Origin: Gekko japonicus
Taxonomy: Eukaryota
Direction: 5' to 3'
DNA length: 64,000 nucleotides
NCBI RefSeq assembly: GCF_001447785.1
Contig: NW_015171503.1
Coordinates: 124,001 to 188,000 of the forward strand
The position numbers were made by a program. The stretch's first letter is position 1. Every line of letters starts with the position of its first letter. This document shows, piece after piece, positions 6,001-12,000 of the stretch.

Positions 6001-9000
6001 ACTGAATTACCCTTGGCGATCATTTCCTGGGTTAGCTCAACCTCACTTCCGGCGGGAGCGAGTTTTCTCTCATGCGTTTCGGAGTGGTTTAAGTTTCTTC
6101 CTCCGTGAAGCTTTCAGGCTGAGAGGATAGATCGTTGGAAAAGAGCGTGGTCGCGCACTCGTTTCGCTCTGGAGCTATGGTGAGGGCTGTTTCGTTTTCA
6201 GAGTTGTAACTTGGGTTGCTGAAGAACACGTGGTAGACAGGCATGTGGGGGACGTTGAACTGGGGTTGGTGACTGCTTAGGCTGTCGGTGGGGATGAATA
6301 TACAGAGCGGAGTGGGGAGGTATTGTAGGTCGACGAAGTATGCAGGGAGTAAATCTGGGCTTCCCCTGTAGTCATGCCTCCCGGTTACCTTTTCGGCCCA
6401 TTGTAGATTTAAGCACTAATCCACGTGCTCCTACCGTCAGAGCTCCCAGTGTTGACTTCGGTATTCTTTATCCCGTAGAAAACGTTTAGTTCTATAGGTG
6501 TAGTCTTGAGGTGTAAATGTGAGGGGGGAATCTCTTCCCTGCCCCCGGAAATGGAGGAAACGTAACAGGAATTCTCCACCCTTCCTCCATTTCCCGGGTT
6601 CTTCTGTTCCAGGTGTTCATTCCTGTAATAGTCTCACTGAGGGTGTAAAATGGGATGTACTAAAAAGGACAGGATTGCCCATTGGAAACAATGGGAGACG
6701 CTTGAAGGCCCATTGGAAATAATGGGAGCCAGGAATGNNNNNNNNNNNNNNNNNNNNNNNNNNNNNNNNNNNNNNNNNNNNNNNNNNNNNNNNNNNNNNN
6801 NNNNNNNNNNNNNNNNNNNNNNNNNNNNNNNNNNNNNNNNNNNNNNNNNNNNNNNNNNNNNNNNNNNNNNNNNNNNNNNNNNNNNNNNNNNNNNNNNNNN
6901 NNNNNNNNNNNNNNNNNNNNNNNNNNNNNNNNNNNNNNNNNNNNNNNNNNNNNNNNNNNNNNNNNNNNNNNNNNNNNNNNNNNNNNNNNNNNNNNNNNNN
7001 NNNNNNNNNNNNNNNNNNNNNNNNNNNNNNNNNNNNNNNNNNNNNNNNNNNNNNNNNNNNNNNNNNNNNNNNNNNNNNNNNNNNNNNNNNNNNNNNNNNN
7101 NNNNNNNNNNNNNNNNNNNNNNNNNNNNNNNNNNNNNNNNNNNNNNNNNNNNNNNNNNNNNNNNNNNNNNNNNNNNNNNNNNNNNNNNNNNNNNNNNNNN
7201 NNNNNNNNNNNNNNNNNNNNNNNNNNNNNNNNNNNNNNNNNNNNNNNNNNNNNNNNTGACAGGCCACGGAGTGGAGTGACAACCGCAGGGTGTAGCAGGA
7301 GTGTTCTGGGACTAGGATGATAGGCCACAGAGTGGAATGACAGCCCCAGGATGGAGCAGGAGTGTTCTGGAACTGGGAAGAGAGGCCCAAGAGTGGAATG
7401 ATAGCCCCAGGCTGGAGCAGGAGTGTTCAGGGACTGGGAAGAGAGGCCCAAGAGTGGAATGACAGCCTCTGGGGGTAGCAAGAGTGTTCTGGAACTGGGA
7501 TGACAGACCACAGAGTGGAATAACAGCCCCAATGTGGAGCAGGACTGTTCAGGGACTGGAATGAGAGGCTCGAGAGTGGAATGACAGCCCCAGGGTGGAG
7601 CAGGATTGTTCAGGGACTGGAATGAGAGACCACGGAGTGGAATGACAGCTCCAGGGTATAGCAGGTGTGTTCAGGGACTCAGGCAGAGTGTGACATGGAA
7701 AGGGAACATGGAGGTAAGGAAGGCATTGGAACTGGTAGAGGGACAAGGGCAAGATTTATAATTGACAGTAGAGGAGGAGGCTCATATCAACCTCATGAAT
7801 TTGTAAGGAAATAAAGGAGCTGAGATGGAGCTGATGTGGTGATAGCTACACACATTCCAGAAATATTTAAATGAAAAGTATTTCACTCTACAGTTTGCAA
7901 ATCCAGTTGCACAGAACTGCCTCTACCCCCAGGGTCTCTACTTCCTATCTGGGGCCTGTCATTCCAGGCCCATAAGACTCCTGCTACTTCCAGGGGCTGT
8001 CATTCCACTCGGTGGTCTCCCATACCATTACCTGAACACTCACCCCCAGGGGCTGTCATTCCATTCGGTGGTCTCGCATTCCAGTTCCAGACCACTCCTA
8101 CAGCATCCAGGGGCTGTCATTCCACTCGGTGGTCTCCCATACCATTACCTGAACACTCACCCCCAGGGGCTGTCATTCCATTCGGTGGTCTCGCATTCCA
8201 GTTCCAGACCACTCCTACAGCATCCAGGGGCTGTCATTCCAGTCCTAGAACACTCCTGCTACTCCTAGGGGCTGTCATTCCACTTTGTGGTCTCTCCTTC
8301 CAGTCCCAAAACAGTCCTGCTACCCCCCAGGGGCTGCCATTCCCCTCCGTGGTCTCTCATTCCAGTCCCAGAACACTCCTGCTCCACCCTGGGGCTGTCA
8401 TCCCACTGGGCCTCTCATCCCAGTCCCAGAACACTCCTGCTCCACCCTGGGGCTGTCATCCCACTGGGCCTCTCATCCCAGTCCCAGAACACTCCTGCTC
8501 CACCCTGGGGCTGTCATCCCACTGGGCCTCTCATCCCAGTCCCAGAACACTCCTGCTCCACCCTGGGGCTGTCATCCCACTGGGCCTCTCATCCCAGTCC
8601 CAGAACACTCCTGCTCCACCCTGGGGCTGTCATCCCACTGGGCCTCTCATCCCAGTCCCAGAACACTCCTGCTCCACCCTGGGGCTGTCATTGCACTCTG
8701 TGGTCTCTTATTCTAGTCCCTGAACAATCCTGCTCCACCCTGGGGCTTTCATTCCACTCTGGAGCCTCCCATCCCAGTCCCTGAACTCTCCTGCTACCTC
8801 CAGGGGCTGTAATTCCTTTTTGGGGCCTCTTATCCTAGTTCCAGAACACTCCTGCTACCCCCAGAGGCTTTCATTTCACTCCGTGGTCTCTCATCCCAGT
8901 CCCAGAACATTCCTGCGATCCCCAAAGGCTATCATTCCACTCTGNNNNNNNNNNNNNNNNNNNNNNNNNNNNNNNNNNNNNNNNNNNNNNNNNNNNNNNN

Positions 9001-12000
9001 NNNNNNNNNNNNNNNNNNNNNNNNNNNNNNNNNNNNNNNNNNNNNNNNNNNNNNNNNNNNNNNNNNNNNNNNNNNNNNNNNNNNNNNNNNNNNNNNNNNN
9101 NNNNNNNNNNNNNNNNNNNNNNNNNNNNNNNNNNNNNNNNNNNGGCTGTCATTCCACCCCATAGTCTCTCATTCCAGTCCCAGAACACTTCTGTTACTCC
9201 CAGGGACTGTCATTCCATTCTGTGGTCTCTCATTCCATCCCCAGGGTAGTGTATTTGGACCAAGAGACCTTAATAGAAAATCCATTCCGCATTTTTATTG
9301 CAACTCTACTTGTACTGTAATATATTTCAGTGGAGCCCATGCAAGTCAATTGGCATTCCGGGCTCCCATTATTTCCAATGGGCCTTGAAGCGTCTTCCAT
9401 TGTTTCCAATGGGTAAGCCTGTCCTTCCTTTTAGTACATCCCATGTAGAACTAGCAATATTAACAATATCTGTCAGTGATGTTGTGTAGCTATGACTTAT
9501 GTTTCTGCTATCTCTGTGTGTATGTATGAGTGTGTGTGTGTTTCCAATGGCTTTTACAAAGAAAATGGTTGGAGAGATTACTGACTAAAGGCAGAACTAC
9601 CGTGTGTAATTATTAGACCTTTCAAAGCATGGTGAAAAGTTCTGCTGTGGGAGGGTGACTTTTTATGCGAAAATGACAAGGGGTGGTTAAGAAGCCCACT
9701 ATTGTAGTTTTTAAAGCTTTTGTTCAGTGGCTGCAACTATCCATTAAAGGCTCACTGGAGTGCATGTAGTTCTGCTGTTAACCGATTCAGGGACAATCCT
9801 GTGGCTTCCAGGATTGTAAATATCTTAACAGGATATCAATTTCATGTGTCTTAATTCTTGCCTTCGTTCTGCAGATTGAGGCAGAAGTAAACCCTAAAGC
9901 TTATCCACTAGCCGATGCCCAGCTCACAAAGACACTGCTGGATCTCGTACAGCAGTCCTGCAACTACAAACAGTTACGCAAAGGAGCCAATGAAGGTGAG
10001 AGAGCTGTTTGAACTTGTGCAGAAGATTAGTGTAGCATATTAAAGGGATTTTGTTTTCTTATGGGTAACGTAACTGCAACTTTATGGAGTATACTCTTAA
10101 ACACCCCCTGCCTTCCTTGGTTATTACCTTGCCCTAGCAGTGAAAGCTGCTGCTGATCCAGATATGTTGATCATAGGACCAGCTGAGGTATGTTTCTCTC
10201 ACCTGCTGTTTTATTTCTGCAAGGTCACATTACAAATAAATGTGTCTGGAAATAGAGACAGGTCTGACTGTCAAGTATCTTCTGGTAGGATCAGAATCTC
10301 AGTTGGTTTTTAAATATGGCAAGAGAATGTTCCAATTTGGGCTGTGATCACACACACACTAAATAATCCACTTTCAATCCACTTTTCAACTGGATTTTAC
10401 TGTGTGAACTGGCAAAATTCAGTTGGAAAGTGGATTGAAAGTAAATTATTTAGCACGTGTGATTGCAGCCTTGGAGTCTTCCCTTACCAGTCTGCATACT
10501 AGCTTAATAGAATTTTGCAGTTAATAGTACCTGTTTGTATGTAACCATCATTTGTAAACCATGATTTGTAAACAGCCAAAATATTAAATCCTCCCATATT
10601 GTCTTCAGTGATATAGGAGCAGTAAATTATTGATGAAGGAATGGCTCTGGCAGCATGTTGTTTTCATCAAAAGTCCAATCCTCTAGATTAGGGGTGTCAA
10701 ATATGTGGCCTGGGGGCCAGATCAGGCCCGCAGTGGAACTGGCTATCTTTTGCTGCTGCATCATCATAGGTTTGCAGCTTACAGATACACACCTGAACAG
10801 CATACTCAAGATTGCAACAGCACATACATTTTGATGCAATAATTCCGAGCAAGAGGTGTCAGTTATCAGACCCTGTTAAATTCAGAAGACAACAGCAAAC
10901 CATTTGTAACCTCTTGCCTAGAAAACCCCATGAGGGATTTCCCTGAGTCAGTTTATTATGGCACTTTATTATGTGATACTGTAGTTTCAGAAAAAGAGCC
11001 AGTTTGGTGTAGTGGCTACGAGTGTGGACTCGAATCTGGGAGAACCAGGTTTGAATCCTCACTCCTCCACATGCAGCTGCCAGTGTGACCTTGGGTCAAT
11101 CATGGCTCTCACAGAGCTGTTCTGTCAAGAGCAGTTCTCAAGAGAGCTCCTCTCAGCCCCACTCACAGGGTGTCTGTTGTAGGGAGGGGAAGGGAGATTG
11201 TAAACCACTCTGAGACTCCTTCAGGTAGTGAAGGGCAGGGTATAAATCCAATCTCTTCTTCTTTTCCATCCTGGCTAACATGGGTTAGGATCTGAAGAAG
11301 TGCATGGCTAGTAACAGTCCAACATGGTATATGAAACCTATCCCATAGGATTTGTTAATTTGATAAGGTTGAAAGTAGCAGTTAGTGAATATATTATAGA
11401 GGTTTTAAGAAATGAAGCTGTAGTTGATGTATGACTCTTCTTTTCCATAGCCACTAAAACTTTGAACAGAGGAATTGCTGAATTCATTGTGATGGCTGCA
11501 GATGCTGAGCCCCTTGAAATCATCCTGCATCTTCCACTGCTGTGTGAGGACAAGAATGTGCCCTACGTATTTGTGCGCTCCAAGCAGGCCCTGGGCCGGG
11601 CATGTGGTGTTTCTCGCCCCGTAATTGCCTGTTCCATTACCATCAAAGAAGGTTCACAACTGAAGCCTCAAATTCAATCTGTTCAACAAGCCATTGAGAG
11701 ACTATTAGTCTAAATTTATGTAGCTGCCCCATACTAAATTAGAGTAACTCAAGGAAAGATGATTGATGTTTATTTTGTATCAGTTTTTTGGTTTGTCTTG
11801 TCATTTGTACAGTATTTACATCTATTAGATTTCAGTTGTTTACCATGTTTGCCTCTTCCTTCTGCCTGCCTCAAAGTATTTGCTCTTTAAGTCTTCAAGA
11901 TGAATTAATCATTTTAATAAGGGTATACTTCCGGTGAAATCACTCTCTCCAAGTAGGATTTAATTAGCCTAAACTTTTTGGTAATAAACTTGATTTGCAG

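What the first reader, a model, noticed from the sequence alone, without database searches (positions are those of the whole stretch)
6651..9443. ~2.8 kb foldback-type element with mirror-image minisatellite arms fills most of SNU13 intron 1
Seen: the termini 6651-6737 and 9354-9443 are inverted repeats. Inside, a 61-bp tandem array on the left faces a reverse-complement 58-61-bp array on the right, around a ~240-bp unique spacer (~7680-7920) with no transposase ORF. Established: modular TIRs built from internal tandem repeats are the architecture of Foldback-type elements (Drosophila FB, Galileo). Inference: this is a non-autonomous foldback family in a reptile; the GGGATG end and ~7-8 bp imperfect flank repeat hint at hAT mobilisation. 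It covers about three quarters of the 3.7-kb first intron of an essential gene, so the pre-mRNA could form a very long dsRNA stem and the DNA a cruciform. Two N-gaps sit inside it, so true arm lengths are unknown.
[Added by the scan's program, not by the reader: the finding's places include an assembly gap (unread letters, written N; its length is only estimated) at 6738 to 7256, 8945 to 9143. Whether the letters on both sides are continuous or in frame is not known: test that first.]
Basis: partly seen in the sequence, partly recalled or inferred. Interest (0 to 1): 0.7.

Follow-up and report, generated by a model that had tools for sequence, protein, structure and literature searches.

The report
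Foldback-type transposon relic in SNU13 intron
A 2.8-kb non-coding mobile-DNA relic, whose two halves are inverted arrays of a 58-61-base repeat, sits in the probable first intron of the splicing gene SNU13; it is real but belongs to a known architectural type.

Summary
Window 6651-9443 is bounded by 87/90-nt terminal inverted repeats: 82 of 87 aligned bases are identical, with one 3-nt indel. A 7-nt direct repeat, TGTAAAA/TGTAGAA, flanks the symmetric ends. Random site pairs reach this in 163 of 20000 trials. Inside, 7 visible 61-nt units on the + strand face 20 visible 58-61-nt units on the - strand across a spacer of about 235-250 nt. None of the 5 ORFs of at least 75 aa scanned inside it has a Pfam match. 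A second, decayed, gap-free copy with the same head-to-head layout lies at about 47640-48065. This argues against an assembly artefact and for a dispersed family. The best reading is a non-autonomous cut-and-paste transposon of foldback architecture, like Galileo two-TIR copies, Tetris or FB. The 7-nt duplication is the length reported for Galileo, but the superfamily stays open. Both gaps interrupt non-continuous sequence, so arm lengths are unknown. The contiguous core folds at -956 kcal/mol, against about -620 to -640 for shuffles. The organism and any Repbase/Dfam entry could not be checked. Interest is modest.

The parts
6644..6650 (.). Left copy of the putative 7-nt target-site duplication (TGTAAAA)
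   Evidence: Matches 9444-9450 at 6 of 7 positions at symmetric element ends. Random site pairs reach this in 163 of 20000 trials.
6651..6737 (+). Left terminal inverted repeat, visible part. It runs into gap 1, so its inner limit is unseen.
   Evidence: 87 aligned bases, 5 mismatches and one 3-nt indel against the reverse complement of 9354-9443; BLAST E 2e-32.
6678..6728 (+). Two copies, 31 nt apart (6678-6697 and 6709-6728), of a 20-nt self-palindromic motif CCCATTGGAAAYAATGGGAG. Candidate transposase-binding sites (inferred).
   Evidence: The window holds 4 matches with up to 3 mismatches, all in the two terminal repeats; 0.01 expected by chance.
6738..7256 (.). Assembly gap 1 (519 N, length estimated). 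Separates the terminal repeat from the array. Not filled.
   Evidence: The flanking modules are not adjacent on the right arm, where 121 nt of unique sequence lie between them.
7257..7679 (+). Left array: 7 visible units of 61 nt
   Evidence: TRF period 61, 6.9 copies, 82% matches; 7 nhmmer hits on the + strand.
7680..7912 (.). Unique middle spacer, non-coding. A weak first unit at 7913-7961 blurs its right limit; by BLAST it runs to 7930.
   Evidence: No other match in the window. No ORF of at least 75 aa lies wholly inside it and Rfam finds nothing there.
7913..8944 (-). Right array, inner part: 18 visible units of 49-62 nt. It includes a 117-nt double unit repeated 2.2 times at 100% (7989-8241). 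Five consecutive 58-nt units (8360-8649) are identical but for one base in the first.
8945..9143 (.). Assembly gap 2 (199 N, length estimated), inside the right array. Not filled.
   Evidence: The unit phase differs across it, so the missing length is about 43 + 61k nt.
9144..9232 (-). Right array, outermost two visible units (one partial)
9233..9353 (-). Subterminal unique segment of the right arm. Its left-arm counterpart, if present, lies in gap 1.
   Evidence: 78.8% identical over 80 nt to 47647-47726 in copy 2. Also aligned to the right side of copy 2.
9354..9443 (-). Right terminal inverted repeat, with the 20-nt motif at 9363-9382 and 9394-9413
9444..9450 (.). Right copy of the putative 7-nt target-site duplication (TGTAGAA)
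47640..48065 (.). Second, decayed, gap-free copy of the family. In order: reverse complement of the subterminal segment (47647-47726), + units (47742-47831), palindromic centre GGAATTCC, - units (47830-47969), subterminal segment (about 47985-48062). No terminal repeat is recognisable.
   Evidence: The search for terminal-repeat remnants did no better than shuffles (55 of 300 and 63 of 300 shuffles reached the observed score).
6177..6179 (+). Inferred end of SNU13 exon 1: ATG followed by donor GTGAGG. Intron 1 is 6180-9874.
   Evidence: One of only 3 ATG|GT sites found in 4001-9874 and the only one in CpG-rich DNA: CpG observed/expected is 1.07 at 6000-6200 against 0.25-0.27 at 9446-9874. No transcript evidence.
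9875..9997 (+). SNU13 coding exon 2
   Evidence: Its translation matches residues 3-41 of hSnu13/NHP2-like protein 1 chains, E 3e-19. There is no in-frame ATG between the upstream stop and the exon.

Best explanation
It is a non-autonomous class II (cut-and-paste) transposon with foldback-type architecture, now an immobile relic. It inserted into what is most likely the first intron of SNU13.

Shown: two roughly 90-nt terminal inverted repeats, each carrying two copies of a 20-nt palindromic motif. Inside them lies a unique subterminal segment, then an array of 58-61-nt units in opposite orientation in the two arms, then a short unique non-coding middle. A 7-nt direct repeat flanks the whole. 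A second, older copy with the same head-to-head layout lies elsewhere in the window.

Inferred: a transposase encoded elsewhere bound the ends, excised the element and integrated it with a 7-nt staggered cut. The palindromic 20-mers, and array units that repeat the terminal heptamer TGGGATG in arm-consistent orientation, served as primary and secondary binding sites. This was shown experimentally for the tandem repeats of Galileo. After insertion the arrays changed independently in each arm by slippage or unequal exchange, which left unequal arms and blocks of identical units.

The element has no known function for the host. It is spliced out with the intron. Its transcript is predicted to fold into a long imperfect hairpin, and the palindromic DNA probably explains why the assembly breaks twice inside it.
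For: Terminal inverted repeats: 82 of 87 aligned bases identical plus one 3-nt indel; E 2e-32.

7-nt flanking repeat: 6 of 7 at symmetric ends; 163 of 20000 random site pairs (0.8%) do as well, and a flank-shuffle control gives about 1%.

Oppositely oriented arrays: 7 units on + and 20 on -. Arm pairs of 290-304 nt are 80-83% complementary.

No coding capacity: 0 Pfam families for the 5 ORFs of at least 75 aa scanned inside the element and the 7 at copy 2. No transposase domain appears in the 79 of 179 window ORFs of at least 75 aa that I scanned. Rfam finds nothing in the element.

Dispersal: a second locus at 47640-48065 has the subterminal segment on both sides in inverted orientation and units meeting head to head, in sequence without gaps.

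Against a mis-join: both arms and the spacer lie in one uninterrupted stretch, 7257-8944. The outer stretches are oriented by SNU13 exon 1 and exons 2-3 on the same strand.

Binding-site reading: the 20-mer occurs 4 times, only in the terminal repeats, with 0.01 expected. TGGRATG occurs 9 times on + in the left arm and 29 times on - in the right arm, and never in the opposite orientation within an arm. A shared word of at least 7 nt between the terminus and the unit has a 2.4% chance.

Post-insertion array change: five consecutive 58-nt units that differ at one base in all, and a 117-nt double unit repeated at 100%, while other units differ by about 17%.

Age: CpG observed/expected is 0.12-0.14 in the arms.

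Precedent, from passages read: Galileo has 7-bp duplications, terminal repeats of 0.3-1.2 kb and tandem repeats whose number differs between the two ends (PMC3573991). Its transposase THAP domain binds sites inside those repeats (PMC3688188). Foldback-like structure is thought to evolve independently in several superfamilies (PMC4079207 section 17; PMC3169594).
Against: Only one copy shows both terminal repeats and a flanking duplication, and that duplication is imperfect and was chosen after inspection. A single site cannot fix the duplication length.

Copy 2 has no detectable terminal repeat. It is only 72-80% similar, so it could belong to a different family that shares the units.

No transposase was found, so mobility in trans is inferred.

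The arms are less alike (80-83%) than the terminal repeats (94%). Units show no mirror-position correspondence: mean identity is 82.6% within the left arm, 83.5% within the right arm and 83.1% between arms. The element was therefore not a clean palindrome recently, if ever.

The perfectly identical unit blocks could be assembly artefacts rather than biology.

The link between the terminal heptamer and the units is weak (p about 0.02, post hoc).

No genome, Repbase or Dfam search was possible, so copy number and classification are unknown.
Confidence: 0.75

Rival explanations
1. Assembly artefact: the inverted arrangement comes from a wrong join or a misplaced or flipped contig around the two gaps, or from a chimeric clone.
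For: Two estimated-length gaps lie inside the element. Blocks of identical units (8360-8649, 7989-8241) are the sort of thing assemblers mishandle. The middle stretch 7257-8944 is tied to its neighbours only through gaps.
Against: The head-to-head junction of the arrays and the spacer lie within one uninterrupted stretch. The two terminal repeats sit in stretches whose relative orientation is fixed by collinear SNU13 exons. Unit orientation is the same on both sides of gap 2. A gap-free second locus shows the same head-to-head layout. A 7-nt direct repeat flanks the outer ends.
Confidence: 0.05
2. Local, non-mobile structure: a minisatellite that grew in this intron and was then duplicated in inverted orientation, for instance by template switching. 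It is not a transposon.
For: The arrays clearly changed in place. The arms are unequal and not in mirror register. Only one locus has the terminal repeats.
Against: A sharply bounded 90-nt inverted repeat of unique sequence lies outside the arrays and ends exactly at a 7-nt direct repeat. The same units and the same subterminal segment recur in inverted pairs 40 kb away in unrelated flanks.
Confidence: 0.07
3. Two independent insertions, head to head, of a one-directional repeat made of an end, a subterminal segment and an array. It is not a single element.
For: The arms differ by 17-20% and in unit number. The unique spacer could be original intron sequence.
Against: The same head-to-head arrangement occurs at copy 2, there without a spacer. 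The direct repeat flanks the composite, not each arm. The outer ends are much more alike (94%) than the arrays.
Confidence: 0.05
4. One reading: a hAT-mobilised non-autonomous element.
For: GGGATG near the terminus recalls the maize Ac end (recalled, not tested). Many orphan non-autonomous hAT families exist in the one lizard surveyed (PMC3014272 passages). An 8-mer with 2 mismatches exists at asymmetric offsets.
Against: At the three symmetric boundaries an 8-nt duplication has 5, 6 and 6 mismatches. The asymmetric 8-mer is matched by 23% of random site pairs. Neither end has a YARNG terminus.
Confidence: 0.1

Closest known systems
Galileo of Drosophila (P superfamily), especially its two-TIR copies without a coding region
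   Same: Long arms that make up most of the element. Tandem repeats inside the arms whose number differs between the two ends of one copy. Unique outermost ends. A 7-bp target-site duplication (PMC3573991 passages). Repeats that carry extra transposase-binding sites (PMC3688188 passages), which here is only inferred from motif recurrence.
   Different: A different host group. Units of 58-61 nt in at least 7 and at least 20 copies, rather than about 210-nt repeats in 0-3 copies. No transposase is known here. I compared no sequences, because no Galileo sequence was at hand. The 7-nt duplication here rests on one imperfect site.
Tetris of Drosophila virilis (foldback, non-autonomous)
   Same: Non-autonomous. 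Modular arms made of a unique final portion plus internal tandem repeats. Few structurally complete copies, many rearranged forms, and no autonomous partner found (PMC4079207 abstract and section 17).
   Different: Tetris repeats are about 220 bp, its duplications are 8-10 bp, and it was assigned to Mutator. Here the units are about 60 nt and the duplication is 7 nt.
Drosophila FB and Mutator/Phantom-linked foldback elements such as Tm1 of root-knot nematodes
   Same: Composite terminal repeats of several domains with variable numbers of short tandem repeats. The two ends of one element differ in length. MITE-like and coding-free members exist (PMC3169594 passages).
   Different: Those elements give 9-bp (8-10) duplications. 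Here 8-, 9- and 10-nt duplications at symmetric ends have at least 3 mismatches. In Tm1 the repeats begin a few bases from the tip; here about 210 nt of unique sequence precede the array.
Xenopus MITEs carrying tandem repeats (Xmix/Xstir, miDNA4)
   Same: Vertebrate non-autonomous elements with inverted ends in which an internal motif expanded into tandem arrays. I know them only from a review (PMC9659126 passages).
   Different: The primary papers were not read.

Membership tests
Foldback-like elements (structural class, polyphyletic) | Long inverted arms that make up most of the element, with a short or absent non-coding middle | tested here: met
   Arms are 6651-7679 and about 7913-9443, with a spacer of about 235-250 nt. 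None of the 5 ORFs of at least 75 aa scanned inside the element has a Pfam family.
Foldback-like elements (structural class, polyphyletic) | Composite arms with internal tandem repeats, variable in number between the two ends | tested here: met
   7 visible units against 20 visible units; TRF periods 61, 58 and 117. The definition is taken from PMC3169594 passages.
Foldback-like elements (structural class, polyphyletic) | Target-site duplication flanking the whole element | tested here: met
   7 nt, 6 of 7 identical, at symmetric ends; 163 of 20000 random pairs do as well. This is a single site only.
Foldback-like elements (structural class, polyphyletic) | Dispersed family of copies with the same ends | tested here: inconclusive
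   A second locus shares the units and the subterminal segment but has no recognisable terminal repeat. No genome was available to search.
hAT superfamily | 8-bp target-site duplication | tested here: not met
   5, 6 and 6 mismatches of 8 at the three symmetric boundaries. An 8-mer with at most 2 mismatches occurs only at asymmetric offsets, as in 23% of random pairs.
hAT superfamily | YARNG terminal motif (criterion as stated in PMC3014272) | tested here: not met
   No YARNG within the outermost 25 nt of either end.
hAT superfamily | hAT transposase in an autonomous relative sharing the ends | not testable with these tools
   No transposase domain in the 79 of 179 window ORFs scanned. No genome or repeat library was available.
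P superfamily (Galileo-like) | 7-bp (Galileo) target-site duplication | tested here: met
   TGTAAAA/TGTAGAA. The length criterion comes from PMC3573991 passages. One imperfect site.
P superfamily (Galileo-like) | P/THAP-type transposase in an autonomous relative; similarity of the terminal sequence to known members | not testable with these tools
   No autonomous copy in the window. No reference P or Galileo sequences were at hand.
Mutator/FB sensu stricto | 8-10 bp, mostly 9-bp, target-site duplication (PMC3169594, PMC4079207 passages) | tested here: not met
   At symmetric boundaries the mismatches are 7, 5 and 3 for 9 nt; 8, 6 and 7 for 10 nt; and 5, 6 and 6 for 8 nt.
Tc1/mariner | TA target-site duplication abutting symmetric ends | tested here: inconclusive
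   TA is present on both sides only if the ends are offset by one base (start 6648, end 9445). A TA that close is expected by chance.
Chapaev / PIF-Harbinger | 3-bp TWA (or TAA/TTA) duplication; termini beginning CAC (Chapaev) (PMC3014272 passages) | tested here: not met
   The ends read TGGGATG, not CAC. No TWA triplet abuts both symmetric ends.
MITE | Small size (hundreds of bp), non-coding, inverted ends | tested here: not met
   The element is at least 2793 nt as assembled. Only the decayed copy 2, about 425 nt, is of MITE size.

The most novel reading that the evidence does not exclude
This may be the first foldback-type transposon family described in an amniote. It would be mobilised by a transposase that makes 7-nt duplications, as P/Galileo-like enzymes do. 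That superfamily was not among the six found in the one lizard genome surveyed for DNA transposons (PMC3014272). Its 58-61-nt array units would be multimerised transposase-binding sites derived from the element's own tip. It would also place a kilobase-scale double-stranded RNA hairpin inside the pre-mRNA of an essential spliceosome protein.
Probability: 0.1. Interest if true: 0.55.

Novelty: new member of a known kind. Interest (0 to 1): 0.3.

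Why it matters
If the family proves to be uncatalogued and truly foldback-type, it adds a vertebrate example to a structural class known mainly from insects, nematodes and plants. That would support the view that this architecture arises repeatedly by growth of the arms. Such elements are hotspots of ectopic recombination and inversion in Drosophila (PMC3169594 passages; listings). They are also hard to assemble, so they mark places where draft vertebrate assemblies break. Here the element sits in an intron, is removed by splicing and shows signs of age, so no effect on SNU13 is expected beyond a structured, possibly edited, intron. That makes it an ordinary if tidy find.

Tried and rejected
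1. I looked for terminal-repeat remnants at copy 2. Local alignment of its outer flanks to the copy-1 end scored no better than shuffles (55 of 300 and 63 of 300 shuffles reached the score). Its two outer flanks are not inverted repeats of each other (183 of 300).

2. I looked for an uninterrupted paralogue of the copy-2 insertion site to fix its boundaries. The flanks match only an unrelated repeat family of about 220 bp.

3. I tested for mirror-position correspondence between left and right units. There was no diagonal in the 7 x 18 identity matrix, and mean identities within and between arms were equal.

4. Rfam found nothing in the element at E up to 1 and nothing at gathering score in the whole window. 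Copy 2's centre gives only far sub-threshold pre-miRNA-like hits. ARAGORN found 0 tRNA genes.

5. Pfam on ORFs: the array ORFs are open only because the repeats lack stops, and none matched a family.

6. A scan of the prokaryotic genome-contig collection for the 20-nt motif, a long shot for host contamination, gave 0 matches. The allowed second scan was not used.

7. A search for the terminal 15-mer elsewhere in the window gave one 3-mismatch hit at 43423. That is within chance (52 of 100 shuffles) and lies in exon-like sequence.

8. Literature. 'foldback' + 'Anolis' + 'transposon' gave 1 paper, irrelevant. 'foldback' + 'lizard' gave 12 papers holding both terms (11 listed). I opened only the one with both terms in its abstract; it concerns chromosome synapsis. 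None of the other listed titles suggests a transposon of lizards. The main text of Novick et al. has no occurrence of 'tandem repeat', 'minisatellite', 'foldback' or 'palindrom'.

9. Not done: structure prediction, complex prediction and the large protein searches, because the element is non-coding. The organism was not determined.

Full report
**What is there**

I read window 5800-10400 directly. The element runs from 6651 (TGGGATGTAC...) to 9443 (...GTACATCCCA). Its outer 87 and 90 nt are inverted repeats: 87 bases align with 5 mismatches and one 3-nt indel. BLAST within the window gives 91.2% over 91 columns, E 2e-32.

Each terminal repeat holds two copies, 31 nt apart, of a 20-nt self-palindromic motif, CCCATTGGAAAYAATGGGAG. 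With up to 3 mismatches allowed, the window has 4 matches. All are in these repeats, against 0.01 expected.

Inward on the right arm come 121 nt of unique subterminal sequence (9233-9353) and then the array. A profile built from the left units finds 7 units on the + strand (7257-7679). It finds 20 on the - strand (7913-9232), two of them weak or partial. TRF reports period 61 on the left (6.9 copies, 82% matches). On the right it reports periods 58 and 117.

The two arrays are reverse complements of one another, not mirror repeats. The longest arm pairs are 290-304 nt at 80-83% complementarity. The middle, from 7680 to about 7912-7930, is unique in the window.

**The gaps, tested first**

The window has three N runs; two lie in the element, at 6738-7256 and 8945-9143. 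Neither joins continuous sequence.

- Gap 1 separates the inner visible end of the left terminal repeat from position 1 of an array unit. On the right arm those two modules are 121 nt apart. If the arms are alike, the gap holds at least that much plus an unknown number of units.
- Gap 2 lies within the right array, with the same unit orientation on both sides. By the profile coordinates, the unit phases differ, so the missing length is about 43 + 61k nt.

I did not fill or look up either gap.

**Is it an artefact?**

Probably not, for four reasons.

- The head-to-head junction, with both array types and the spacer, lies in one uninterrupted stretch, 7257-8944.
- The two terminal repeats lie in the outer stretches. 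Their relative orientation is fixed by SNU13 exon 1 on one and exons 2-3 on the other, all on the + strand.
- Unit orientation is the same on both sides of gap 2.
- A second, gap-free locus at about 47640-48065 shows the same design. It has the subterminal segment in inverted orientation on both sides (78.8% over 80 nt to copy 1). It has + units, then - units, meeting at a GGAATTCC centre without a spacer.

**Is it mobile DNA?**

At the symmetric ends the flanks read TGTAAAA (6644-6650) and TGTAGAA (9444-9450), 6 of 7 identical. I allowed three symmetric boundaries and lengths of 7-10 nt with at most one mismatch. Under that test 163 of 20000 random site pairs in the window do as well (0.8%), and a flank-shuffle control gives about 1%. 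The choice was made after looking and rests on one site, so I treat it as good but not conclusive evidence of a 7-nt target-site duplication.

The second locus lies in unrelated flanks, which argues for dispersal. However, it lacks any recognisable terminal repeat: 55 of 300 and 63 of 300 shuffles reach the alignment score. It is also only 72-80% similar. It is either an old truncated copy or a cousin family.

**No coding capacity**

The long ORFs inside the arrays are open only because the repeat lacks stops. None of the 5 element ORFs or the 7 at copy 2 matches a Pfam family. Among the 79 of 179 window ORFs of at least 75 aa that I scanned, the only hit is a Ku70/Ku80 domain of the neighbouring gene. 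Rfam finds nothing in the element.

**Array history**

Units differ by about 17% on average. Mean identity is 82.6% within the left arm, 83.5% within the right arm and 83.1% between arms. There is no mirror-position diagonal.

Against this background stand two nearly perfect blocks. Five consecutive 58-nt units at 8360-8649 are identical apart from one base in the first. A 117-nt double unit is repeated 2.2 times at 100% at 7989-8241. I read these as recent local slippage or unequal exchange in one arm, as described for Galileo (PMC3573991 passages). Assembler error in a repeat cannot be excluded.

The arms are strongly CpG-depleted, with observed/expected 0.12-0.14. The terminal repeats differ at 5 of 87 aligned bases. 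Both fit an old, inactive insertion.

**How it most likely worked**

A transposase supplied in trans is inferred, since none is in the window. The paired palindromic 20-mers in each end are the obvious candidate binding sites.

The terminal heptamer TGGGATG recurs in the units in arm-consistent orientation. Counts of TGGRATG are 9 on + in the left arm and 29 on - in the right arm, with none in the opposite orientation within an arm. The chance that a terminal 12-mer shares a word of at least 7 nt with the unit is 2.4%.

This suggests, weakly, that the arrays are multimerised secondary binding sites. That role was shown by footprinting and gel shift for the tandem repeats of Galileo (PMC3688188 passages).

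**Superfamily**

- 8-nt duplications at symmetric ends have 5, 6 and 6 mismatches.
- The 8-mer with 2 mismatches needs asymmetric ends, and 23% of random pairs match it.
- There is no YARNG at either end.

Duplications of 9 and 10 nt, the Mutator/FB range (PMC3169594 and PMC4079207 passages), have at least 3 mismatches. TA is possible only with a one-base offset. Seven nt is the length reported for Galileo of the P superfamily. Novick et al. list six superfamilies in the anole, without P or MuDR. I leave the superfamily open.

**Gene context**

I searched the gene model exon by exon and left out the joined, spliced step. Exon 9875-9997 matches residues 3-41 of hSnu13 / NHP2-like protein 1 chains (E 3e-19). 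Exon 11450-11710 matches residues 42-128 (E 4e-50) and Pfam Ribosomal_L7Ae.

The exon-2 frame has no ATG upstream of it, so the start codon must come from an upstream exon. Of the three ATG|GT sites found in 4001-9874, only 6177 has a good donor (GTGAGG) in CpG-rich DNA. CpG observed/expected is 1.07 at 6000-6200, against 0.25-0.27 downstream of the element.

Intron 1 is thus inferred as 6180-9874 (3695 nt), of which the element is 75.6%. If exon 1 were instead at 9629, the element would lie upstream of the start codon. There is no transcript evidence.

**Structure potential**

The contiguous core 7257-8944 folds as RNA at -956.4 kcal/mol. Twelve whole-sequence dinucleotide shuffles give -638.5 +/- 9.1. 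Twelve shuffles that keep each arm's composition give -621.7 +/- 16.9. In the optimal fold, 371 of 423 left-arm bases pair with the right arm.

A long imperfect intronic hairpin is therefore plausible. Editing, small RNAs and DNA cruciforms are untested inferences. Because both arms lie in one intron, I expect no effect on exon choice (inference).

**Comparison and novelty**

The design is a unique tip, a subterminal segment and inverted tandem arrays of unequal number around a short non-coding middle, with no autonomous partner at hand. That is the design of foldback-like elements: Galileo two-TIR copies, Tetris, FB and Tm1. This class is regarded as polyphyletic.

Two full-text searches returned nothing on a foldback-type transposon in lizards (1 irrelevant paper; 12 papers, 11 listed, one opened). 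The anole DNA-transposon survey does not use the words foldback, tandem repeat, minisatellite or palindrom.

Several things limit any claim of novelty.

- Repbase, Dfam and the genome itself could not be searched.
- Supplements are closed.
- No call established that the window comes from a reptile.

**Verdict**

The finding is real, well bounded, and a new member of a known kind. Interest is modest.

Noticed in passing
window 10351-10461: A small palindromic element in SNU13 intron 2. It has 48-nt arms that are 85% complementary, with a 15-nt loop. Far below gathering score it hits several plant microRNA precursor families (best RF03631, 55.7 bits against a gathering score of 105). It looks like a MITE-type hairpin unrelated to the finding.
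   Followed up: partly
window 47769-47874: The centre of copy 2 is a hairpin of about 100 nt (43-nt arms, 84% complementary, 20-nt loop). It gives only weak, far sub-threshold pre-miRNA-like Rfam hits (best 30.6 bits against a gathering score of 100).
   Followed up: partly
window 46867-47090, 54408-54631, 57351-57573, 55980-56196 (-), 59991-60152: A dispersed repeat family of about 220 bp with five copies at 75-91% identity. It is probably a SINE-like element. It was not classified, and ARAGORN finds no tRNA-like gene in the window.
   Followed up: no
window 5564-5674: A weak 5S-rRNA-like match just upstream of the SNU13 promoter region (22 bits against a gathering score of 38, E 0.39). It may be a 5S-derived repeat or chance.
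   Followed up: no
window 13447-13671 (-) and 24288-24869 (-): The neighbouring gene converges on SNU13 from the minus strand. It has a SAP-domain exon (E 9e-07) and a Ku70/Ku80 N-terminal domain exon (E 1.4e-23), so it is a Ku70 (XRCC6)-like gene.
   Followed up: partly
window 14269-15337: A G+C-rich stretch of about 1 kb with long open frames on both strands (up to 280 aa) and no Pfam match. Its nature is unknown; it could be a CpG island or a GC-rich repeat.
   Followed up: no
window 5841-5858: A run of 18 C just upstream of the CpG-rich putative SNU13 promoter.
   Followed up: no
window 29089-29240: A third assembly gap (152 N), outside the finding.
   Followed up: no
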